A DNA stretch of 64,000 nt from a phage. Shown here piece by piece: positions 8,991 to 63,852 of the stretch. The position numbers were made by a program, and so were the translations under genes. Position 1 is the stretch's first letter, and the number at the start of each line of letters is the position of its first letter. The stretch lies in sequence record NC_101835.1; one strand, written 5' to 3'. Under the pieces are notes generated by a model, which saw only the letters and a program-made list of their open reading frames with translations, searched no databases and was not told where the DNA came from.

Positions 8991-9077
8991 TGGTGGGGAG
9001 TGGTGGAGTCGAACCACCCGAGTCGCAATGACAATAGATTTACAGTCTACACCGCTACCTCTACGGGATAACTCCCC
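8991..9077 (-). tRNA. tRNA-Tyr (anticodon GTA), type II
   Basis: 87 nt, acceptor GGGGAGT/ACTCCCC, anticodon loop CTGTAAA, long variable arm, T-arm GTGG-TTCGACT-CCAC, encoded CCA. Confidence 0.75.
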
Positions 9078-9081
9078 AATT

Positions 9082-9156
9082 TGGCACCCCGTACTGGACT
9101 CGAACCAGTGTCAACGGCTTAGAAGGCCGCTGCTTTATCCACTAAGCTAACAGGGC
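9082..9156 (-). tRNA. tRNA-Arg (anticodon TCT)
   Basis: 75 nt, acceptor GCCCTGT/ACGGGGT (two G-U), D-arm GCTT-AGTGGATA-AAGC, anticodon loop CTTCTAA, T-arm ACTGG-TTCGAGT-CCAGT, encoded CCA. Confidence 0.75.
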
Positions 9157-35280: not shown

Positions 35281-36213
35281 ATGAGGAGACTAACAACCGA
35301 AGAGTTTATAGAAAAAGCTCAGACTATACATGGTGACAAATATGATTACTTCAAAGTGGAGTATAAAAACAACAAGACACCTGTGTGTATAATTTGTCCT
35401 GAGCACGGTGAGTTCTGGCAAACCCCTGTGGCACATGCTTTCAAGAAGCATGGTTGTCCAAGGTGTGGTGGGTCAGCGAAAAAGAACACTGAAGAGTTCA
35501 TAAAAGAGGCTATGGTTGTTCATGGGGACAAGTACGATTACTCATTAGTCAAATATGCGAACATGAGAACGCCTGTAAAAATTGTTTGCCCTGAACACGG
35601 TGTGTTTGAACAATACCCTGAAAACCACTTATACCAAAGAAACGGCTGCCCAGAGTGCTATGACTTAAGACGTGGGCAAAGTCAAGCGTTAACCCATAAG
35701 GAGCATGCTGCAATTATCCACAAAGCCAACCCAGACATAGAAATATTAGAGAAAATTGCCAATGATAACACAAAAGTGCAATGTAGGTGCAAAATTTGTG
35801 GGTATAAGTGGTCTGCTAAACCTAATAACCTAAAAAGTGGTCGTGGCTGCTGTAAATGCGCACAAAATGGATTCTTATCTCATGAGTACGGTAAACTCTA
35901 CATTATGGTTGATGACTTAGAAGTGCCAACACTTATGAAAATCGGTGTATGCGTTAAAATGCACAGGAGGAAAAATGAGGTGCTTAACAGTGCTCGTAAA
36001 TCTGGCGCAGGTGTCCACACTCTTCACGTAGTAAAAACGTGGAGCGGATCAACTCAAAACATGGTAGACTTAGAAAAATCTGTGCATAAGGCCTTCAGCA
36101 AGTATAAAATAAACTTTCCTGTAAAATTTGACGGTAGCACTGAGTTTTTCTACTACAGGCCTGAAGTGTTTGACACGGTAGAAGAGGTATACAAGAAGAT
36201 TTGTGGTAAATGA
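35281..36213 (+). CDS. free-standing homing-endonuclease-like protein: 3 zinc-ribbon repeats plus C-terminal T5orf172 (GIY-YIG-like) domain
   Basis: Three ~60-aa repeats (HGDKYDY...CPEHG...GCPxC) and C-terminal T5orf172-like domain (EFFYY). Confidence 0.5.
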   Translation: MRRLTTEEFIEKAQTIHGDKYDYFKVEYKNNKTPVCIICPEHGEFWQTPVAHAFKKHGCPRCGGSAKKNTEEFIKEAMVVHGDKYDYSLVKYANMRTPVKIVCPEHGVFEQYPENHLYQRNGCPECYDLRRGQSQALTHKEHAAIIHKANPDIEILEKIANDNTKVQCRCKICGYKWSAKPNNLKSGRGCCKCAQNGFLSHEYGKLYIMVDDLEVPTLMKIGVCVKMHRRKNEVLNSARKSGAGVHTLHVVKTWSGSTQNMVDLEKSVHKAFSKYKINFPVKFDGSTEFFYYRPEVFDTVEEVYKKICGK

Positions 36214-38251: not shown

Positions 38252-39181
38252 ATGCGTTTAGGAGAACAGTTATCACGAGAAGAAGTGTTTATCAAGAAAG
38301 CTACTGATAAGCATGGTGACAAGTATGATTACTCCAAAGTTGTATACAAAAACAACACAACACCTGTGAATATAGTGTGCAACAAGTGTGGTACAGTTTT
38401 TAGTAAAACTCCTAAGTCTCACCTTATAGGCGCAGGATGCCCAGATTGTAAGAACAGGGAGTTAAGTGAGAGATTCCGAATGTCTAAGGAGGAGTTTGTA
38501 AAAAGGGCAACAGAACTGCACAAGGGGAAGTATGACTACTCTCTTGTAAAAAGTTTTTCTAACAGGAACGACACTGTTACTATTATTTGCCCCATCCACG
38601 GAGAGTTCAAGCAGACAGTTGCAAATCATTTAGCTGGTGGGTGCTACAAGTGTGGAAAAAGAGCGACAGCTAAAAAGATGAGGAAGTCTAAAGATAGATT
38701 CATAGAGGATGCTACTCAACTACACGGAGACATATATGACTATTCAGAAGTGAAGTATGTGAATACCCACACTCCTGTAACCATTATCTGCAAGTCTTGC
38801 GGGTGTAAGTTTCTTCAACAGCCTGCAAACCACCTGTGCGGTAACGGTTGCCCAGAATGCTCTACTTCAGGATTCAGGCAGAGTACTAAAGAGAGCTGTC
38901 TGTACCTTCTTGTTGATGATCTTACCATTCCCACGGTTATAAAAGTTGGGGTGACTATCAATCTACAGAGCAGACTATACAACATAAGAAGGAACACAAA
39001 TTTTCCTGTTCACGTGCTTAAAGTATTTACTTTCGAGCAGGGGTGTGCTACCATGCAGCTTGAAAAATTGGTGCATAAAGTCTTTGCAGATCGCAACTGC
39101 CACTTCGAAGGTTTCGACGGGGCAACGGAGTGGTTCTGGTACTCTCATGATATTGTAGAGTTTCTAGAAGACAATTGTTGA
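38252..39181 (+). CDS. free-standing homing-endonuclease-like protein, paralog of 35281..36213
   Basis: Same architecture: three HGDKYDY/zinc-ribbon repeats and C-terminal T5orf172-like domain (EWFWY). Confidence 0.5.
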   Translation: MRLGEQLSREEVFIKKATDKHGDKYDYSKVVYKNNTTPVNIVCNKCGTVFSKTPKSHLIGAGCPDCKNRELSERFRMSKEEFVKRATELHKGKYDYSLVKSFSNRNDTVTIICPIHGEFKQTVANHLAGGCYKCGKRATAKKMRKSKDRFIEDATQLHGDIYDYSEVKYVNTHTPVTIICKSCGCKFLQQPANHLCGNGCPECSTSGFRQSTKESCLYLLVDDLTIPTVIKVGVTINLQSRLYNIRRNTNFPVHVLKVFTFEQGCATMQLEKLVHKVFADRNCHFEGFDGATEWFWYSHDIVEFLEDNC

Positions 39182-57488: not shown

Positions 57489-57704
57489 CTATGCTGTACG
57501 CTCAACTATAACAACGGCTTGAGGGATCTCACCTTCAACCACTATCAAGGCTTTTTTCTGCGTGATAGATATCTTTACCCGCTTCAGCGTGGCGGTAAAA
57601 TCTTTCATTTCGTCACGTGGTGTTTTAGTGCAATACCAGATCTCAGGCTTGCCGATCTGTAAGTTGCGTAAAAATTCTGTTTTGCCTGTTTTGTTAGTGA
57701 TCAT
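57489..57704 (-). CDS. hypothetical protein (71 aa)
   Basis: GGTGAGG RBS. Confidence 0.35.
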   Translation of the reverse strand: MITNKTGKTEFLRNLQIGKPEIWYCTKTPRDEMKDFTATLKRVKISITQKKALIVVEGEIPQAVVIVERTA

Positions 57705-57712
57705 TTGGCAAC

Positions 57713-57817
57713 CTCACCCGATACCGTTGGAAGACAAGATCGCATTAGCCATGGTTGCAATCAGGCCAATACCCAGGGCAATAACCAAGATCACTGCATC
57801 GATTAATTTCTGTTTCA
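57713..57817 (-). CDS. small hydrophobic peptide (34 aa), tentative
   Basis: Minus-strand ATG..TGA encoding MKQKLIDAVILVIALGIGLIATMANAILSSNGIG; below ORF-track cutoff. Confidence 0.25.
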
Positions 57818-57895
57818 TGGTGTTTATTCTCTTCTGTTAGTAACCTTATTCATGGGGCCGCTACCACAGCCCCAAGGTAAGGCAGCTATGTGCTT

Positions 57896-58141
57896 TTAGT
57901 GTTTCATTCCAACCATCGCGGCACGGATCGCCGTAGTGCTGTACTTGAAGCCGTCCGGGGTCTTATCTTGTCCGGTTAGCTCCAGAAAAAGCATCATATC
58001 CCGCGCCGCATCATTACGATTAGCATTGGCGTTAATAAAGCCTTGGGCCAACCGGTACAATGACTCATCGTTATTAATCCAAAGGCTTACATTCCAATGA
58101 GTTTTGTTTTTGTAACCGTTATAACCTTTATTGCTTTTCAT
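57896..58141 (-). CDS. hypothetical protein (81 aa)
   Basis: AGAGGTAAA RBS. Confidence 0.4.
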   Translation of the reverse strand: MKSNKGYNGYKNKTHWNVSLWINNDESLYRLAQGFINANANRNDAARDMMLFLELTGQDKTPDGFKYSTTAIRAAMVGMKH

Positions 58142-58487
58142 GGTGTTTACCTCTTCTTTGTTCCAGGTGGCGGATCATTCTACCACCTTATGTATTATGC
58201 TTTGTTAGATGGTTGTTTGTTGTCAAACTATTTTACCGATAATCATCATATGCTTTATTTACCTGGCGAATATAACATTCAAAAGCCAAATCAATAGATT
58301 TATATTCACGGATATACTCACCATAGGAAACCACATACATTTCTATAGCTTCCTCATATGCGAGGAGAATAGAATCTAAGCCTACGATCTCAGTCTTTGC
58401 AATAATAGCCATGATTTTTTATCCTCTTTGTGGTTGGTGGGGTTCGTTGCCCCTTTGATTTATATATTACAGTCTTATATGGTCATG

Positions 58488-58721
58488 TCAACTATTTTCA
58501 AAAAATTTTTCTGCTGTGATATTCTTCCCGGTAGGGTTCGCTACTTTCAAAATTTTATCATGCACTGGACGCCCAAAAGAATAAGCGCCGTACACAGTAA
58601 ACCAATAATCGCCGTCAGGTTGTACTATTACTGCCGCATATGGTACGCCTTTTTCGTTTTTGCTGACAAAATAGATCACGTTGCCATTAATAGCCTCGGC
58701 GCGTTTAATTTGTTCCATCAT
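58488..58721 (-). CDS. hypothetical protein (77 aa)
   Basis: AAGAGAGG RBS. Confidence 0.4.
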   Translation of the reverse strand: MMEQIKRAEAINGNVIYFVSKNEKGVPYAAVIVQPDGDYWFTVYGAYSFGRPVHDKILKVANPTGKNITAEKFFENS

Positions 58722-58777
58722 GATGATTTGCCTCTCTTTATTTTCATAATTGGGGGGCCTTTTCGGCCCCGCCAGGT

Positions 58778-59062
58778 TTATTTATTGATAGCGTGCAGCG
58801 GGAAAGGTACGCCAGGTTGATAGATAACCTTTACAACCTCATCAGGACAAAAGAAGTTGCAGAACTCACCGCAATAGGCCTCATCCTCTTTCAACTCTTC
58901 ATCAACATACTCAAAAAAGTAGTCGATGCTTGGATAATCTTGACCAGGGTTATAATCAACCATAGTGAGGACCAGTTCAAGATCATTGCGGATGATATGC
59001 ATACCAGCTTTTAAATACTTCGCTTCCATTTTTACTACATCGCCAGCGGTAACAATAGCCAT
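58778..59062 (-). CDS. hypothetical protein (94 aa)
   Basis: Internal ATG of ORF 58778..59128 with CAGGAG RBS. Confidence 0.35.
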   Translation of the reverse strand: MAIVTAGDVVKMEAKYLKAGMHIIRNDLELVLTMVDYNPGQDYPSIDYFFEYVDEELKEDEAYCGEFCNFFCPDEVVKVIYQPGVPFPLHAINK

Positions 59063-59293
59063 GGTTTTAACTCCTGTTTCTGTTAATGATTGGAGGCATA
59101 ACCCCCCTCGACAACTCTTATTATCCATATTGTAGGGCTTGATGCAAGTACTTCTTTAAAAAAAAAAATTTTTTAAGTGCCTTGGAGGCCGCTGTAACGC
59201 CAAAATAATAAAGGCCATGCAACCGCATAGCCTTTATGTGATTATATCGCTGCAGGCCCTGCTAGGGGCCTTATTTTGCATCATTTGCCGGAA

Positions 59294-59602
59294 CTATACA
59301 GAGAAAACATCGTTCACAATAGCGATCACAATGCCGCCCACCTTGTCACGGTCAACAATGCACAAATCACCATAGATCATGTGGTAGTCTGGATGATCTT
59401 TCACGGAATAGTCAATGAGCGTTTTCTTGTCGTCCAGCTTTGTAACTTCCATTCTCATAACGATATGAGAATCATCAAAGGCATTATTCCGAAAAGTCAT
59501 AGCCTGACCACCAGGGCACCCAGTGATCTCCACTTCCACACCGTCTACGATCTGACCATCAAAGAAATAAAGATTATTAGCCAGGATAAACATGTTTATC
59601 AC
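59294..59602 (-). CDS. hypothetical protein (102 aa)
   Basis: AAGGAGTGAT RBS. Confidence 0.4.
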   Translation of the reverse strand: MINMFILANNLYFFDGQIVDGVEVEITGCPGGQAMTFRNNAFDDSHIVMRMEVTKLDDKKTLIDYSVKDHPDYHMIYGDLCIVDRDKVGGIVIAIVNDVFSV

Positions 59603-59640
59603 TCCTTGTTAACTGCGTGTTATTTTACCACGATTAAAAT

Positions 59641-59684
59641 TTACTTTACTGATGGCCCTGGCGTCAAGGCCATCTAAAAATAAA
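59641..59684. repeat. conserved ~44-nt intergenic element with hairpin GATGGCC...GGCCATC (copy 1 of 2)
   Basis: About 90 percent identical to 63385..63428. Confidence 0.5.
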
Positions 59685-59685
59685 T

Positions 59686-59886
59686 TTACAGGCCTACAAT
59701 CTCTTTGATTCGTTTAACTGCTGCCTCAGCGCCTTGGGGGTAGAAATTATGGTAACCGATCACGCGAGTGATACTAATCGCAGTTTGATGATCTTCATAA
59801 TAGCCCTTGAAGATTTCTTGACCGTCAATCAGCACGGCAATTTTTTCTTCTTTTTTGAAGTTAATAACGCGGATATTGTTGCTCAT
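59686..59886 (-). CDS. hypothetical protein (66 aa)
   Basis: Promoter TTGCAA...TAATAA, hairpin GGGGA-gctaa-TCCCC, GGAGA RBS upstream. Confidence 0.4.
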   Translation of the reverse strand: MSNNIRVINFKKEEKIAVLIDGQEIFKGYYEDHQTAISITRVIGYHNFYPQGAEAAVKRIKEIVGL

Positions 59887-60366
59887 TTTGTTTCTCCTTT
59901 CTGGTTTTTGTGTTGGTGGGGATTAGCTCCCCGTTGATTATTATTATCCATATTTCGGACCGGATTGCAACACCCCGGAAGAAAAATTTTTTGAAAAAGT
60001 TAGGCCCCCAGGGATCGGGGGCCGTTATCAGTTACTTACAGCGATAAAATACATCCCTACGCCTAACAATATTTCAAGGGCGATGATCTCAAGCCATACC
60101 ATAACCCGGCGCACCTTATCGGTGCGGGGCTTATCCTTGGTTGTCATCGTCTCCCCCTTTCATCCTGGTAGTAGTGACGTGGTTTACAATGGCCCCCAGG
60201 AGTACCATCACCACGCACATCACAAGAAAAATTATCTCTGTCGTTGTTCGATCCATTGTTATAAAATTCCTTAAGATCAGGCCTGAAAATAAAGCGTTCG
60301 TTATTGAATCCATCACGCCAGGCGGCTGGCTTCAAATCTTCATCAAAGGGATTAATTAACGTGGTA

Positions 60367-60738
60367 TTATTTAAACGGCTGGCCCACATATTTTCTATTC
60401 CTCTCAAATAGGCGATCCGCCTCAGTTAAACAAATCTCATGGGCGTGATCTCTGGTTTTAGCTTCATCGAAAACCTGTTGTGCAAGGCTGCAGCGTAGGG
60501 AGACTGGAAGATCACTATAATAGGCGTTGACAAATGTTTGCGCGTCATACAGGTCGGAAAATACTTTACCCTTTCTATTATCGCCTTTGTCAACAATTGC
60601 AAGGATAACAAGTACAATAGTTGCAACCACCCCCAGGAAAATAGATATAATAAACCATAAAAAGGCGGATCTACCCATCTTGCCAGCGATCCAGGCGTTA
60701 AACAAGGCAACTAATACGGCCAAAATAATAAATTCCAT
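60367..60738 (-). CDS. membrane protein (123 aa)
   Basis: Internal ATG with AAGAGGTA RBS; two TM helices. Confidence 0.4.
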   Translation of the reverse strand: MEFIILAVLVALFNAWIAGKMGRSAFLWFIISIFLGVVATIVLVILAIVDKGDNRKGKVFSDLYDAQTFVNAYYSDLPVSLRCSLAQQVFDEAKTRDHAHEICLTEADRLFERNRKYVGQPFK

Positions 60739-60802
60739 TCTATGTACCTCTTTTGCAGTTCTGTTTAACAATAAGGCGGCAAATATGCCGCCTGTTACCT
60801 GA

Positions 60803-61183
60803 TTAAAAATTATCGCCGTAAATCTTTCCGCTTTCTGCCCACACCACCACGCGGGGCATACTATCCCACACGTCTTGTTTTAGATTGAGCGCGTGCAATT
60901 CTTCGGTGGTGCCCATACCAGGCACGGGCTGATTGTATACTGCAAAACGACCACCCGCATAGTCATAGGCCAGAGTTAAATCACACTGGATCATCTTTTT
61001 GATCATGGCATTAAGCATGGCGTTAGCCGCATACTGATCACGTTTTAAAGGCAACTCTTTGATTAGTTTGCGATAGTTTTCAATGTGATCGCACACTGTT
61101 TCACGTGGAAGATCTTTCATATCCTCGCGAAAGGTAACCAGGTTAAACATGACGGTGTCAATAGCTTTAGTAGTGTTTTTCAT
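60803..61183 (-). CDS. hypothetical protein (126 aa)
   Basis: ATG at 61183 preceded by promoter TTGCAA-N16-TATATT, hairpin GGGGCAA...TTGCCCC and GAGG RBS; ORF-track extension lies in the 5' UTR. Confidence 0.45.
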   Translation of the reverse strand: MKNTTKAIDTVMFNLVTFREDMKDLPRETVCDHIENYRKLIKELPLKRDQYAANAMLNAMIKKMIQCDLTLAYDYAGGRFAVYNQPVPGMGTTEELHALNLKQDVWDSMPRVVVWAESGKIYGDNF

Positions 61184-61273
61184 GATGTTTTCCTCTTTGT
61201 TTTGTGTGGGGGGCAAACGTCTTGCCCCTTGAGTTTTAATATAGCAGGTTTTTAGATTATTGCAACACTTTAT

Positions 61274-61897
61274 TTATGAAAAACTCATCTCTCCATATTC
61301 ATCCACATCAAACCGCCAATCATTGGCCTCGATAAGGCCGATCAGGTTTTCGGTAGTAAATTGTTCAAGATAAGCTTGCTCCAGGTCTACGTAAACCTTG
61401 CGGGATAGTTCCCGTACGTTCTCGGTGATCAACTCTTCCAGCTCTTCAACCTTACTTTCTTGCTTGGCTGTCAGGTCTAGCCATGTAGTATCGATGTACC
61501 CGCTTACAGTGTTTTCGTGACTATAGCGGCTATATGGATCACGCTCAACACTTGCGGATAGCTCGCCATCGTGCATTGTGCCGAACAAGTGACGAATTGA
61601 GCGGAATTTAGTCAGAGACTTGACTTTACGCAAGAATTTTTCTAAATCCACGTTTTCCGCACTGATTGACGCGCCGTCGCCCTGGCACCAAAAGCCGGAC
61701 CAATGTACCTTGGTATCTTCAAGGCCATACTCTGGAAAGATATGTTCTTTATAGTCTTCAATTACACTTTCTGCAAAAAAGTTATCCCCGCTGTGTTCTT
61801 CTCTTTCGCGGACCATTTCAATAGCTTTTTCTTTTTGTTCATCGGTCAGCACGTCGAAAGATAAATTGTAACCTGTGGTAATGTTAACGGTGGTCAT
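61274..61897 (-). CDS. hypothetical acidic protein (207 aa)
   Basis: Promoter TTGACA-N16-TATACT, UTR hairpin GGCGGGAA...TTCCCGCC, GGAG RBS. Confidence 0.45.
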   Translation of the reverse strand: MTTVNITTGYNLSFDVLTDEQKEKAIEMVREREEHSGDNFFAESVIEDYKEHIFPEYGLEDTKVHWSGFWCQGDGASISAENVDLEKFLRKVKSLTKFRSIRHLFGTMHDGELSASVERDPYSRYSHENTVSGYIDTTWLDLTAKQESKVEELEELITENVRELSRKVYVDLEQAYLEQFTTENLIGLIEANDWRFDVDEYGEMSFS

Positions 61898-61971
61898 GAT
61901 ATTTTCTCCTATTTTCTTTGTTAGTGGCGGGAAGTTTTCCCGCCTGTGTGTTTAAGTATACTTATCGAGAT

Positions 61972-62232
61972 TTACTTGTCAACACTATTTTTTAAATTAT
62001 TGTGGCGCAAAATGCTTAAAATCTCTTCAACGTCATCAACACGGCGGCAATTTTTAAACGCTACCAATTGCCCCATGATTTTAATCACTGGACGGCCTTG
62101 CCAGTGCCCCTGGAGAAAGCGCGCCTTGACTTTATCGGTGGAACTATCACGCCACCAAATGGCCTTGTTATTGCAGTAGTAAAAATTATTCAGGACAACA
62201 TCAACTTTATCAAAATTTTTTAATTTACGCAT
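61972..62232 (-). CDS. hypothetical protein (86 aa)
   Basis: AAGGAAGGAG RBS. Confidence 0.4.
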   Translation of the reverse strand: MRKLKNFDKVDVVLNNFYYCNNKAIWWRDSSTDKVKARFLQGHWQGRPVIKIMGQLVAFKNCRRVDDVEEILSILRHNNLKNSVDK

Positions 62233-62478
62233 GGCGTTTACTCCTTCCTTCTTGCTTTGATGTGGTTAGTATATCCGGACTATTCCAAGGTGTCAAGCTT
62301 TAAATAAAATCACTGTCAATGATATTTTTTAACACCATAAAACGGCCCTGGGTGATGTTTTCAGGTTAATAAAGGGGATTGCATAGGTAGGGGCTTTTGT
62401 GGCGTTTGTGGGGCCAACCAGGGGCGCTATTCGTAGGATAGAAATAAAAAACCCCGCACAATGGCGGGGCGTTGGTTG

Positions 62479-62676
62479 CTATTTGTCTTTGTGGCGGTAT
62501 CGTTCCGCTTGTCGTTCACGTTCCAAAAGCAGGCTGGGTAATTTGCGATCATAGTGATTTCGCCAGATCTTCCCAAATCTTTTCGGCTTATTCAGTTTAT
62601 TGTTACGCTGGCGTCGTTCCGGCAGCTCTTCGGAATCATGAGATCGCTTTACAATCTTCTCAAAATTAATCTTCAT
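62479..62676 (-). CDS. small basic protein (65 aa)
   Basis: Internal ATG with AAGGGGGGAA RBS; Arg/Lys-rich. Confidence 0.35.
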   Translation of the reverse strand: MKINFEKIVKRSHDSEELPERRQRNNKLNKPKRFGKIWRNHYDRKLPSLLLERERQAERYRHKDK

Positions 62677-63019
62677 ATATTCCCCCCTTGCTAACTTCAA
62701 TATTGGCCTGAATAGCCCGGATACGGCGCTTTATAACCTCCTGATCCTTGCAATCATATCCCCAAAAGTCTACGATTTTTGCGCCTCCAGCCTTTAGGCG
62801 GTATAGTGTTTCTTGCATCTTGTAAGCCGGGATCGGTCGCGGTGTTACCTGGTCGCCCTTCTCATTCTTGTACTTGATAATGTAGTCTTCATTGTCGTTG
62901 AATACCCAAAATGGGTATTCTGTGAGCGCGTTGCTCTCTTTTTCGTTTTTAGATTGGATCTTGTTTACAATTAAAGCCGTAGCAATAGCGCCAATAATAA
63001 AACTTGCCCCGCTGATCAT
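62666..63019 (-). CDS. membrane-anchored protein (117 aa)
   Basis: Internal ATG with AAAGGAGAAA RBS; N-terminal TM helix. Confidence 0.4.
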   Translation of the reverse strand: MISGASFIIGAIATALIVNKIQSKNEKESNALTEYPFWVFNDNEDYIIKYKNEKGDQVTPRPIPAYKMQETLYRLKAGGAKIVDFWGYDCKDQEVIKRRIRAIQANIEVSKGGIYED

Positions 63020-63094
63020 GTACTTTCTCCTTTCATTGTGTTGATAAACTATCTTTATAGATGGCCCTGCTACCAGGACCACCGAAAAAACAGC

Positions 63095-63340
63095 TTATTT
63101 GACGATACCGACAAAACAGATCCCGCCTTCCCCTATATAGGCAATATCGGTAATTTTATAATTTGTCAAGATCCGCGTGTTCAGATCATTAATAAAATCG
63201 GTCATCGCGTTGGTGTGGTTGTCTTCCGTGTCTAAGGCATAATCCCAGGTGTAAACCTTTTTACGTCCGAAGCCTTTTACCATGATACGGGCGCTTTTGG
63301 TGTTGGTAGGGGCATAATATTTGGTGATTAGTGCTGCCAT
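63095..63340 (-). CDS. hypothetical protein (81 aa)
   Basis: AGAGGAG RBS. Confidence 0.4.
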   Translation of the reverse strand: MAALITKYYAPTNTKSARIMVKGFGRKKVYTWDYALDTEDNHTNAMTDFINDLNTRILTNYKITDIAYIGEGGICFVGIVK

Positions 63341-63384
63341 GGTTTTAACTCCTCTGAATTAGTTCAGTGTTAACAGTATAAAGT

Positions 63385-63428
63385 TTACTTTATTGATGGC
63401 CCTGAAGTCAAGGCCATCTAAAAATAAT
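63385..63428. repeat. conserved ~44-nt intergenic element (copy 2 of 2)
   Basis: Near-identical to 59641..59684, same position relative to the flanking gene stop. Confidence 0.5.
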
Positions 63429-63429
63429 C

Positions 63430-63771
63430 TTACTCGTTTTCTTCCAGCTCCGCAAGCTCTTCTTTTGCTTCTTCTAACTCTGTCTGTAGTTCCTGGTATT
63501 CTTCATCGTCCTCAATATCCAGGCTGTCGATGTAGTCGCTAAATCCGCAGCGGTAAGCGATAGGATCTAGCTCCTTGAGGATACGCGACGGAAGAAAAGA
63601 AATGTTTCCGATCATAATTTCGCCGTAGATCTCGTCTAACCATTCATCATAGTTTTCGTCGTACTTGTCCTCGTCGATTTCAAAGTTATCGATCTTGTTC
63701 TCAAGGTCTGCGATCTGTTTTTTCAGCGCGGCGATCTGCATAGCTTTTTCTGCGGCGGTCATAGTAGTCAT
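63430..63771 (-). CDS. highly acidic coiled-coil protein (113 aa)
   Basis: Promoter TTGACA-N16-TATACT, UTR hairpin GGGAAAACTTCCC, GGAG RBS; very acidic. Confidence 0.45.
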   Translation of the reverse strand: MTTMTAAEKAMQIAALKKQIADLENKIDNFEIDEDKYDENYDEWLDEIYGEIMIGNISFLPSRILKELDPIAYRCGFSDYIDSLDIEDDEEYQELQTELEEAKEELAELEENE

Positions 63772-63852
63772 GGTGTTTTCTCCTTTTGTGTGCTCTGGGA
63801 AGTTTTCCCGTTTACGTGTTTAAGTATATCGATCTAAGTTAGTTTGTCAATT

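What the first reader, a model, noticed from the sequence alone, without database searches (positions are those of the whole stretch)
59641..63428. Two copies of a ~44-nt conserved hairpin element immediately after gene stops
Sequences at 59641-59684 and 63385-63428 are ~90 percent identical, contain a 7-bp stem GATGGCC/GGCCATC, and sit just after the stops of genes 59686-59886 and 63430-63771. Conservation at nucleotide level in non-coding DNA suggests a processing site, protein-binding site or small mobile element.
Basis: seen in the sequence. Interest (0 to 1): 0.4.

Follow-up and report, generated by a model that had tools for sequence, protein, structure and literature searches.

The report
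Promoter-embedded RNA hairpin between phage early genes
A roughly 55-base element repeated between small early genes of an rV5-like E. coli phage folds, on the coding strand only, into a two-part RNA hairpin that closely resembles the RNase III cutting signals of phage T7, also carries a host-type promoter, and is a recombination point for swapping gene cassettes.

Summary
The window is an rV5-like Vequintavirus, and the genes here lie on the minus strand. The two copies are 40/44 identical. There is also a diverged third copy at 63044-63098. In related genomes a fourth copy lies just past the window end.

Each copy starts at the stop codon of one orphan gene and ends 25-45 nt before the next gene. 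On the minus strand it folds into a 10-bp upper stem with a tetraloop, a 2x3 internal loop and an 11-13-bp A/U lower stem. The fold is supported by compensatory changes and by G·U pairs that work on that strand only.

A covariance model built only from the five T7 early RNase III sites ranks these elements as the top hits in the window. In the JES-2013 sequence scanned outside the window, its only other hit is one terminator-like hairpin. Three of the four copies also carry TTGACN-18-TAAAYT. Copies recombine with each other, and one bounds a cassette shared with another phage subfamily.

Best reading: a cassette like the promoter-early stem-loops (PeSLs) of T4-type phages, whose RNA hairpin is probably a T7-type RNase III processing and 3'-stabilising signal. 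Cleavage and promoter activity are untested. It is a new variant of known kinds, of moderate interest.

The parts
63381..63431 (-). Copy 2, type 1: the complete two-part hairpin. Lower stem 63431-63421 pairs with 63391-63381. The internal loop is 5' UA / 3' AAU. Upper stem 63418-63409 pairs with 63404-63395. The tetraloop ACUU is at 63408-63405. The first bases overlap the stop codon of ORF 63430-63771.
   Evidence: Fold: -22.3 kcal/mol, z -5.7, against z -2.65 for the plus strand. Element model R1: 82.6 bits. T7 RNase III model R2: 22.2 bits, the top hit in the window. The hairpin persists in a 150-nt context.
63382..63411 (-). Sigma-70-like promoter inside copy 2: TTGACT (63411-63406), an 18-bp spacer, then TAAACT (63387-63382).
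   Evidence: The promoter scan scores 9 of 12. The homologous site in phage Gotham is annotated as a promoter by PhagePromoter. TTGAC is invariant in 28 of 29 distinct type-1 copies, while the next two loop bases vary.
63044..63098 (-). Copy 3, type 2, diverged. It has a 13-bp lower stem, an internal loop 5' UC / 3' UAU, the upper stem GGUGGUCCUG/CAGGGCCAUC with two G·U pairs, and the loop GUAG. It overlaps the stop of ORF 63095-63340. It has no good -35 hexamer.
   Evidence: Fold: -28.2 kcal/mol, z -8.0; plus strand -10.1 kcal/mol, z -1.8. R1: 74.7 bits. R2: 21.1 bits. It shows compensatory changes relative to type 1.
59637..59687 (-). Copy 1, type 1: the complete two-part hairpin. Upper stem 59674-59665 pairs with 59660-59651. 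The loop is ACGC and the internal loop is UA/AGU. It overlaps the stop of ORF 59686-59886.
   Evidence: Fold: -23.1 kcal/mol, z -5.4. R1: 72.7 bits. R2: 21.4 bits.
59638..59667 (-). Sigma-70-like promoter inside copy 1: TTGACG (59667-59662), an 18-bp spacer, then TAAATT (59643-59638).
   Evidence: The promoter scan scores 9 of 12. Gotham carries a PhagePromoter annotation at the homologous site.
59622..59630 (-). Extended -10-like TGGTAAAAT, downstream of copy 1. It is an alternative promoter for ORF 59294-59593.
   Evidence: Read directly from the sequence. It matches the TggTAaAAtA motif reported for rV5 (PMC3606486).
63391..63392 (-). Predicted RNase III cut on the 3' side of copy 2 (CAUCAAU^AAAG). 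The equivalent sites are 59647/59648 in copy 1 and 63056/63057 in copy 3. The predicted 5'-side partner is UUUU^AGAUGG.
   Evidence: This is an inference by geometry. T7 R1 has the same UA/AAU loop and is cut after AAU (the cleavage coordinates are from my own knowledge of Dunn and Studier 1983). The spacing of 11 bp from cut site to tetraloop comes from PMC1540722.
63823..63850 (-). Consensus early promoter (TTGACA-16-TATACT) that starts the transcription unit containing copies 2 and 3. It is also the left boundary of the cassette shared with phage KKE7M.
62451..62470 (-). Canonical intrinsic terminator (hairpin followed by a U tract) that closes the unit containing copies 2 and 3.
59943..59970 (-). 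Promoter (TTGCAA-16-GATAAT) that starts the unit containing copy 1. That unit ends at the terminator at 59208-59237.

Best explanation
The element is a composite regulatory cassette of the PeSL type (promoter-early stem-loop), sitting between orphan early genes of an rV5-like phage. Its defining feature acts at the RNA level. When the host polymerase reads through from the upstream consensus promoter, about 51-55 nt starting at the upstream stop codon fold into a roughly 23-bp two-part hairpin: a 10-bp G/C-rich upper stem with a tetraloop, a 2x3 internal loop, and an 11-13-bp A/U lower stem. I propose that host RNase III cuts this hairpin at the internal loop, as it cuts the T7 early signals R0.3 to R1.3. 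Cutting would separate the cistrons and leave the upper hairpin as a protective 3' end on the upstream message. In three of the four copies the same DNA also reads as a sigma-70 promoter (an A/T tract, TTGACN, 18 bp, TAAAYT), which can start a transcript for the downstream gene. Because about 55 bp are nearly identical between copies, the copies also serve as homologous-recombination linkers that delete or move the cassettes they flank. Shown here: the repeat, its positions, the strand-specific covarying fold, its resemblance to T7 sites, the promoter-like hexamers and the recombination products. Inferred: cleavage by RNase III, promoter activity, and the effect on message stability.
For: Fold. 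All three copies give the same two-part hairpin on the minus strand (-22 to -28 kcal/mol, z -5.4 to -8.0). The plus strand gives -10 to -16 kcal/mol, z -1.8 to -2.65. The hairpin persists in 150-nt contexts.

Covariation. Across 40 distinct copies from 20 loci, representing about 15 phage genomes and contigs, 96.4% of cells pair, against 36-54% when the partners are slid. Four lower-stem pairs change on both sides. One of them shows the path C-G, then U-G (JES-2013), then U-A. G·U occurs at 11 pair positions and A·C at 2.

Independent test. Model R2 was built only from the five T7 early RNase III sites and run without filters. Its top three hits in the 64-kb window, both strands, are the three copies. 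They match full length on the minus strand at 22.2, 21.4 and 21.1 bits (E 2e-4 to 5e-4), and the next hit scores 16.1 bits. In the other JES-2013 sequence scanned (87 kb) it finds only the four copies (27.6 to 21.0 bits) and the same 16.1-bit hairpin. T7 late sites held out of the model score 44.6, 43.8, 19.5 and 14.2 bits. The best hit in T7 that is neither a known site nor the reverse strand of one scores about 13 bits.

Detail. T7 R1 folds with the same internal loop, 5' UA / 3' AAU. The second and third pairs from the tetraloop are U-A and U-G, the canonical distal box, and the pair at proximal-box position 2 is A-U (PMC1540722).

Context. Each copy lies inside a unit bounded by a consensus promoter and a canonical terminator.

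Promoter. The hexamers score 9 of 12, PhagePromoter annotates the sites in Gotham, and TTGAC is invariant while the neighbouring loop bases vary.

Recombination. ECP32 and contig L027 carry a chimeric copy and lack the 631 bp between copies 4 and 2. A 474-bp cassette that is 94.7% identical in KKE7M, a member of another subfamily, ends exactly at the element.

The PeSL definition matches: upstream stop codon in an A/T tract, a sigma-70 promoter, and a stem-loop that may overlap the -35 (PMC2839356).
Against: There are no RNA-end data. Cleavage is an inference from shape and from a model score of about 21 bits with roughly calibrated E-values. Two proximal-box positions deviate from the R1.1 optimum: position 1 is U-A rather than G-C, and position 3 is G-C rather than A-U. 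Substitutions at those positions weaken binding in the minimal substrate. The reverse search, the element model against T7, gives only an insignificant hit, at R0.3 (11.8 bits, E 6.2). The copies are closely related, so many of the covarying cells are inherited rather than independent events. The promoter has a suboptimal 18-bp spacer and a weak -10, and matches at this level are common by chance (28 found against 15 expected in 7 kb). Copy 3 lacks a -35. The authors of the PeSL papers interpret their stem-loops as terminators, not processing sites. The element was not found in other Vequintavirinae-like loci, so its evolutionary depth is small.
Confidence: 0.5

Rival explanations
1. The stem-loop is a transcription attenuator or terminator, as proposed for PeSLs in RB49 and phi1. 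It damps read-through from the upstream cassette, and the embedded promoter restarts transcription.
For: PeSL stem-loops were reported to be effective terminators, with the same layout of stop codon, A/T tract, promoter, stem-loop and Shine-Dalgarno sequence (PMC2839356). The element occupies the slot held by promoters in the neighbouring intergenic regions.
Against: On the coding strand neither stem is followed by a U tract; the hairpin is followed by AAUAAAGUAAA. The terminator scan does not flag it. Canonical hairpin-plus-U terminators are used nearby, at 62451-62470, 60003-60023, 60774-60793 and 59208-59237. A conserved internal loop 10 bp from the tetraloop and a long A/U lower stem are not terminator features.
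Confidence: 0.17
2. The hairpin is a passive RNA stability or insulation element that is not cut by RNase III. It would act as a barrier to 3' exonucleases after other cleavages, or as a binding site for a phage or host RNA-binding protein.
For: The same strand-specific, covarying structure supports this reading. The 3' arm and adjoining sequence, CAGGGCCAUC-NNU-AAAG, are nearly invariant in both sequence classes (40 distinct copies), which could reflect sequence-specific recognition. Some hairpins bind RNase III without being cleaved (PMC1540722).
Against: It does not explain the specific match to T7 RNase III sites in geometry, in the UA/AAU loop and in the distal box. No candidate binding protein was identified, and all flanking proteins are of unknown function.
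Confidence: 0.15
3. The element is a regulated sigma-70 promoter. The inverted repeat GATGGCC-N10-GGCCATC is a DNA operator for a dimeric repressor or activator, centred on the -35.
For: In type-1 copies a perfect 7-bp inverted repeat brackets TTGAC. Promoter hexamers are present and are annotated in Gotham.
Against: The departures from symmetry are G·T on the minus strand at 11 pair positions, against A·C at 2. In copy 3 the two DNA half-sites are not equivalent, and the -35 is lost, yet the RNA fold is kept and is stronger. Covariation extends through an 11-13-bp A/U lower stem, well outside a 24-bp operator. The plus strand folds poorly.
Confidence: 0.08
4. The conservation reflects only recent spread or gene conversion of a recombination linker or mobile repeat. 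The fold is a by-product with no RNA function.
For: Type-1 copies are nearly identical to each other. There are recombinant chimeric copies and a cassette shared across subfamilies.
Against: The diverged type-2 copy keeps the same architecture through compensatory and wobble changes. There are no target-site duplications or transposase, and the copies sit at fixed syntenic sites in about 120 genomes.
Confidence: 0.05

Closest known systems
RNase III processing signals of the phage T7 early region (R0.3, R0.5, R1, R1.1, R1.3)
   Same: Both are families of hairpins, about 45-55 nt long and similar to each other, lying between genes of an early region transcribed by the host polymerase. Both have a 9-10-bp G/C-rich upper stem containing G·U pairs, a 4-5-nt loop, an asymmetric internal loop and an A/U lower stem. 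T7 R1 has the identical UA/AAU internal loop. The distal-box pairs are U-A and U-G, as in R1.1. A model of the T7 sites ranks the elements first in the window. T7 also places a minor E. coli promoter (C, start at 3113) at R1.
   Different: There is no detectable common ancestry, and the elements score about 21-28 bits against 40-61 bits for the T7 training sites. The lower stem is longer (11-13 bp against 5-8 bp) and contains the upstream stop codon. The internal loop is mostly 2x3 rather than 4x5. Proximal-box positions 1 and 3 differ. A full sigma-70 promoter lies inside the hairpin. Cleavage has not been demonstrated.
PeSLs (promoter-early stem-loops) of T4-type phages RB49/phi1, PST/T4 and nt-1/KVP40 (Arbiol et al. 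2010, PMC2839356; Comeau et al. 2014, PMC4122927)
   Same: Both are repeated intergenic cassettes in regions rich in orphan genes. Both run from an upstream stop codon in an A/T tract, through a sigma-70-like -35 and -10 and a stem-loop containing G·T pairs that may overlap the -35, to the Shine-Dalgarno sequence of the next gene. Recombination between copies deletes or moves the flanked genes. Neighbouring consensus promoters here are followed by GGGG...CCCC hairpins, as in RB49 PeSLs.
   Different: The host phage is a Vequintavirus, not a T4-type phage, and there is no sequence similarity to RB49 PeSLs. The stem-loop here is a 23-bp two-part hairpin spanning the whole promoter and lacks a U tract. 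PeSL stem-loops are short G(n)-loop-C(n) stems reported to be terminators. There are only four copies, against about 50 per genome. Mini-circles were not tested.
Lambda sib retroregulator
   Same: Both are RNase III hairpins placed just after a coding region, with the cut determining the fate of the upstream message (my own knowledge).
   Different: sib is a single site that overlaps a terminator and destabilises the upstream int message. Here there are four copies between tandem genes, and stabilisation is the more likely outcome. No comparison was run.

Membership tests
T7-type RNase III processing signal | A hairpin of about two helical turns made of an upper and a lower stem separated by an internal loop or mismatch at the cut site | tested here: met
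   A 10-bp upper stem, a 2x3 loop and an 11-13-bp lower stem in all copies. The pairing is supported by covariation.
T7-type RNase III processing signal | Lies between cistrons of a multi-gene early transcript made by host RNA polymerase | tested here: inconclusive
   The position between tandem minus-strand ORFs, inside units bounded by consensus sigma-70 promoters and canonical terminators, is shown. The existence of read-through transcripts is inferred.
T7-type RNase III processing signal | Matches a sequence-and-structure profile of known T7 sites | tested here: met
   Model R2, built from the five early T7 sites, ranks the three copies as its top three hits in the window (21.1-22.2 bits, E 2e-4 to 5e-4). 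In the other JES-2013 sequence scanned it finds only the four copies plus one 16.1-bit terminator-like hairpin. These scores lie within the range of the held-out T7 late sites, 14.2-44.6 bits. The E-values are rough.
T7-type RNase III processing signal | Distal-box and proximal-box determinants (U-A and U-G; G-C, A-U or U-A, A-U, A-U or U-A) within 11 bp of the cut | tested here: inconclusive
   In type 1 the distal box is U-A/U-G, proximal-box position 2 is A-U and position 4 is an A·A mismatch, all acceptable. Position 1 (U-A) and position 3 (G-C) deviate. Copy 3 has U-A/C-G in the distal box, as T7 R0.5 does (sequence compared with PMC1540722).
T7-type RNase III processing signal | Cleaved by RNase III in vivo or in vitro | not testable with these tools
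   No papers on a Vequintavirus transcriptome or on RNase III in these phages were found.
PeSL (promoter-early stem-loop cassette) | Sigma-70-like early promoter with an A/T-rich tract upstream of the -35 | tested here: inconclusive
   TTGACN-18-TAAAYT scores 9 of 12, with a T-rich tract upstream, in copies 1, 2 and 4. PhagePromoter annotates the sites in Gotham. Copy 3 has no good -35. Promoter activity is untested.
PeSL (promoter-early stem-loop cassette) | [quoted passage not shown] | tested here: met
   The stop codon lies in the base of the lower stem, the -35 in the upper stem and loop, and the -10 in the 3' strand of the lower stem. The Shine-Dalgarno sequence follows 20-45 nt later.
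PeSL (promoter-early stem-loop cassette) | Located among non-essential orphan genes, and recombination between copies produces indels or cassette exchange | tested here: met
   The flanking proteins are unrelated to each other and of unknown function. ECP32 and L027 carry a chimeric copy and lack the 631 bp between copies 4 and 2. The boundary of the cassette shared with KKE7M falls at the element.
PeSL (promoter-early stem-loop cassette) | The stem-loop acts as a terminator or attenuator | not testable with these tools
   Function cannot be tested here. The sequence features of an intrinsic terminator are absent (see the next row).
Intrinsic (Rho-independent) terminator | A G/C-rich hairpin immediately followed by a U tract on the transcribed strand | tested here: not met
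   The scan does not report it on either strand. The stems are followed by A-rich sequence.
Any curated Rfam family | Reaches a family's gathering score | tested here: not met
   The best overlapping match is SurC at 22.3 bits, against a gathering score of 80.
Palindromic DNA operator | Two equivalent half-sites on double-stranded DNA | tested here: not met
   G·T occurs at 11 pair positions and A·C at 2. The half-sites of copy 3 differ at three positions while RNA pairing is kept.

The most novel reading that the evidence does not exclude
One 55-bp sequence does three jobs. As DNA it is a host-type promoter. As RNA, when transcribed from upstream, it folds on itself into an RNase III processing signal that insulates and stabilises the upstream orphan-gene message. 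As a repeat it is the linker by which promoter-gene-hairpin cassettes are deleted, duplicated and passed between unrelated phage subfamilies (Vequintavirinae and Stephanstirmvirinae). This would tie PeSL-type modular shuffling to RNase III processing for the first time.
Probability: 0.3. Interest if true: 0.6.

Novelty: new variant of a known kind. Interest (0 to 1): 0.42.

Why it matters
rV5-like phages are widely used as candidates for therapy and biocontrol of E. coli, yet their early regions are annotated as rows of hypothetical proteins with no regulatory logic. This element makes a concrete, cheap-to-test prediction: RNase III-dependent RNA ends at three defined positions in the window (and in the fourth copy of related genomes), with promoter starts a few bases downstream. 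If confirmed, T7-style intercistronic processing would extend to a large myovirus. It would also link that processing to the promoter and stem-loop cassettes thought to drive orphan-gene shuffling. And it would explain why cassette boundaries between different phage subfamilies fall exactly at this sequence. If it is not confirmed, the element is still a well-defined PeSL-like marker of recombination hot spots, useful for annotation and for engineering insertion sites.

Tried and rejected
- **Rfam scan of 56-64 kb:** nothing came near a gathering score.
- **Element model R1 on early regions of more distant relatives that encode a homologue of the upstream protein** (Klebsiella KP13-26, Serratia ChuuTotoro, Vibrio F88): no convincing hits. 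The T7 model also found none there. The element therefore seems confined to Vequintavirus, plus one Justusliebigvirus.
- **IMG/VR and metagenome pattern scans:** these gave a few rV5-like contigs and otherwise chance hits, so little extra diversity.
- **A generic sliding-window hairpin scan of the window:** the criteria were too permissive and the output uninformative, so I abandoned it.
- **Reverse search of T7 with the element model:** it returned only an insignificant hit, although that hit was at R0.3.
- **Supplementary scoring matrix of Altuvia et al. 2018 for RNase III sites:** it is not held, so no quantitative cleavage score could be computed.
- **Readings rejected:** intrinsic terminator (no U tract); duplication of a larger gene block (homology is limited to about 55 nt and the flanking proteins are unrelated); DNA cruciform or operator (strand-asymmetric wobble pairs); transposable element (fixed syntenic sites, no hallmarks of transposition).
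- **T7 database records:** they do not list the RNase III sites. The T7 cleavage coordinates (890, 1468, 3138, 5887, 6450; late sites 11203, 13892, 18563, 36856) are from my own knowledge of Dunn and Studier 1983. The model hits land on them.

Full report
**Source and orientation.** The last 5 kb of the window are 94-97% identical to more than 110 rV5-like phages (Vequintavirus), with Escherichia phage 2 JES-2013 the closest. In this part of the genome all genes are short ORFs on the minus strand. The element therefore has to be read on the minus strand.

**The observation.** The repeat finder gives 89% identity over 55 nt. GATGGCC-N10-GGCCATC occurs exactly twice; with up to 2 mismatches there are 4 matches, against 0.13 expected. 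Both copies abut the stop codons of ORFs 59686-59886 and 63430-63771. The family is larger than reported:
- A diverged third copy (64% identity) follows the stop of ORF 63095-63340.
- JES-2013 has a fourth copy, which maps just past the window end.
- A covariance model of the element (R1) finds only these copies in the window and in the other JES-2013 sequence fetched (JES 1-50,000 and 100,000-136,910), which together with the window cover essentially the whole genome.
- About 120 Vequintavirus records carry the element, usually with three BLAST-detectable copies plus the diverged one.

**Anatomy.** As minus-strand RNA each copy folds into the same two-part hairpin:
- an 11-13-bp A/U lower stem whose first bases are the upstream stop codon;
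- a 2x3 internal loop (5' UA / 3' AAU; UC/UAU in copy 3);
- a 10-bp G/C-rich upper stem containing G·U pairs;
- a tetraloop of variable sequence.

The energies are -22 to -28 kcal/mol, with z-scores of -5.4 to -8.0. The plus strand reaches only -10 to -16 kcal/mol, with z-scores of -1.8 to -2.65. The hairpin survives in 150-nt contexts.

I collected 61 copies, 40 of them distinct, from the window and 19 other loci, representing about 15 phage genomes and contigs.
- 96.4% of pair cells are standard pairs, against 36-54% when the partners are slid.
- Four lower-stem pairs change on both sides.
- All upper-stem changes are one-sided shifts to or from G·U (also on an ungapped alignment).
- One pair shows the classic path C-G, then U-G (JES-2013), then U-A.
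- G·U occurs at 11 pair positions and A·C at only 2. This points to a structure formed by the minus strand, most simply the transcript, and not to a symmetrical double-stranded DNA site.

The caveat is that the copies are closely related, so many covarying cells are inherited together.

**Context.** Predicted consensus promoters (TTGACA-16/17-TATACT) and canonical hairpin-plus-U terminators divide the region into short units:
- P63850, then ORF 63430-63771, copy 2, ORF 63095-63340, copy 3, two further ORFs, and the terminator at 62451-62470.
- P59970, then ORF 59686-59886, copy 1, ORF 59294-59593, and the terminator at 59208-59237.

The hairpins are therefore intercistronic within predicted multi-gene transcripts. 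They are not followed by U tracts and are not flagged as terminators. The flanking proteins are unrelated to each other and have no known function.

**Test against T7 RNase III sites.** Folded with the same tool, the five T7 early sites show the same plan: a 9-10-bp G/C upper stem with G·U pairs, a 4-5-nt loop, an asymmetric internal loop and an A/U lower stem. T7 R1 has exactly the UA/AAU internal loop.

I built a covariance model (R2) from those five T7 sites alone and scanned without filters.
- In the 64-kb window, both strands, the three best hits are the three copies. They match full length on the minus strand at 22.2, 21.4 and 21.1 bits (E 2e-4 to 5e-4, roughly calibrated). The next hit scores 16.1 bits.
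- In the other JES-2013 sequence scanned (87 kb), the only hits below E = 1 are the four copies (27.6 to 21.0 bits) and the same 16.1-bit hairpin.
- In four other phage loci, only the KKE7M copy scores (24.6 bits).
- As calibration, T7 late sites that were not used to build the model score 44.6, 43.8, 19.5 and 14.2 bits, and one is missed. The best T7 hit that is neither a known site nor the reverse strand of one scores about 13 bits.

Against the determinants defined on the R1.1 minimal substrate (PMC1540722), the type-1 element has:
- the canonical distal box (U-A, U-G) next to the loop-closing pair;
- an acceptable A-U at proximal-box position 2;
- a non-G/C mismatch at position 4;
- deviations at positions 1 and 3.

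The geometry of 11 bp from the cut to the tetraloop places the predicted cuts in the internal loop, at UUUU^AGAUGG and CAUCAAU^AAAG. A single cut at such a loop would leave a 3' hairpin, which is known to stabilise messages (PMC3867540). The identity and coordinates of the T7 sites come from my own knowledge of Dunn and Studier 1983. The database records do not list them, but the model hits fall on them.

**Promoter layer.** In copies 1, 2 and 4 the same DNA reads as a T-rich tract, TTGACN, 18 bp and TAAAYT, scoring 9 of 12. PhagePromoter annotates these sites in phage Gotham, whereas the original rV5 annotation and paper do not. TTGAC is invariant in 28 of 29 distinct type-1 copies while the next two loop bases vary freely. 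In copy 4, TAAACTAACCACA resembles TATACTAACCACA of the consensus promoter at 62296. Matches at this level are common by chance, and copy 3 has no -35, so promoter activity is plausible but unproven. T7 offers a precedent: the start of its minor E. coli promoter C (3113) lies within the R1 hairpin.

**Recombination layer and the closest described class.** Arbiol et al. (PMC2839356) and Comeau et al. (PMC4122927) described PeSLs in T4-type phages. These are repeated cassettes running from an upstream stop codon in an A/T tract, through a sigma-70 promoter and a stem-loop (with G·T pairs, sometimes overlapping the -35), to the next Shine-Dalgarno sequence. Recombination between copies shuffles orphan genes.

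The element fits that description, and two kinds of recombination product are visible.
- Phage ECP32 and contig L027 carry a chimeric copy, with the 5' flank of copy 4 and the 3' flank of copy 2. They lack the 631 bp and two ORFs that lie between those copies in rV5.
- Phage KKE7M belongs to a different subfamily (Stephanstirmvirinae). It shares a 474-bp segment that is 94.7% identical, running exactly from the -35 of P63850 to the end of copy 2.

No paper in the library mentions PeSLs in rV5-like phages. The differences from PeSLs are the host phage group, the absence of sequence similarity, the small number of copies (four), and a long two-part hairpin without a U tract where PeSLs have a short G(n)-loop-C(n) stem.

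**Verdict.** The element is real, conserved and strand-specific. The best explanation (confidence about 0.5) is a PeSL-like cassette whose hairpin is a T7-type RNase III processing and 3'-stabilising signal, with an internal sigma-70 promoter in three of the four copies and a side role as a recombination linker. The rivals are an attenuator or terminator (0.17), an uncleaved stability or protein-binding hairpin (0.15), a DNA operator (0.08) and a functionless recombination repeat (0.05). Cleavage, promoter activity and effects on stability are inferences, and end-mapping in wild-type and rnc-mutant hosts would settle them. Novelty: a new variant of known kinds. Interest: moderate.

Noticed in passing
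window 63797-63850, 61929-61982, 61207-61265, 59912-59970, 58433-58491 (minus strand): Consensus early promoters (TTGACA or TTGCAA, 16-17 bp, TATACT or similar) are each followed in the 5' leader by a short G(n)-loop-C(n) hairpin such as GGGAAAACUUCCC, then CACACAAAA and the Shine-Dalgarno sequence. They form repeat families D7 and D3 and look like classic RB49-type PeSLs or 5' stabiliser hairpins.
   Followed up: partly
window 59206-59237 (minus strand), with a convergent hairpin at 59254-59271 (plus strand): The terminator-like hairpin AUAAAGGCUAUGC-GGUU-GCAUGGCCUUUAU followed by UAUUUUGG is the fourth-best hit of the T7 RNase III model (16.1 bits). Its upper stem resembles T7 AAGGUC...GUGGCCUUUAU. 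It may be both a terminator and an RNase III substrate.
   Followed up: no
L001 5489-5529 (phage Gotham, copy 4); L060 5372-5440: Natural damaged variants of the fourth copy. Gotham has a 5-nt deletion that removes the 3' arm of the upper stem. The metagenomic contig has TTGATAA with an insertion and a changed lower stem. Copy 4 therefore seems dispensable in some genomes.
   Followed up: partly
phage collection records MG0656xx: Seventeen records named 'Campylobacter phage', with host given as C. jejuni, are 95-96% identical to E. coli rV5-like phages across this region. The host labels look doubtful, possibly through contamination or mislabelling.
   Followed up: no
window 59622-59630 (minus strand): TGGTAAAAT, an extended -10-type motif, lies between copy 1 and ORF 59294-59593. 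It matches the TggTAaAAtA motif that the rV5 paper proposed as a late-promoter-like sequence, yet here it sits in the early region.
   Followed up: no
window 8432-9156 (minus strand): A cluster of six tRNA genes (Met, Thr, Ser, Tyr, Arg and one 99-nt call with a four-base anticodon, atcc). The odd call may be a pseudogene or an unusual tRNA.
   Followed up: no
window 35299-35396, 35491-35588, 38282-38379, 38693-38790 (plus strand): Four copies of a 98-nt repeat, 61-77% identical, that looks like coding sequence (repeat family D1). This suggests a repeated protein domain in two pairs of neighbouring genes.
   Followed up: no
L054 (phage KKE7M) compared with window 57491-61152: Besides the cassette bounded by the element, several other short patches (94-339 bp, 75-94% identical) are shared between this Justusliebigvirus and the window's early region. 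This indicates extensive mosaic exchange of orphan-gene cassettes between the two subfamilies.
   Followed up: partly
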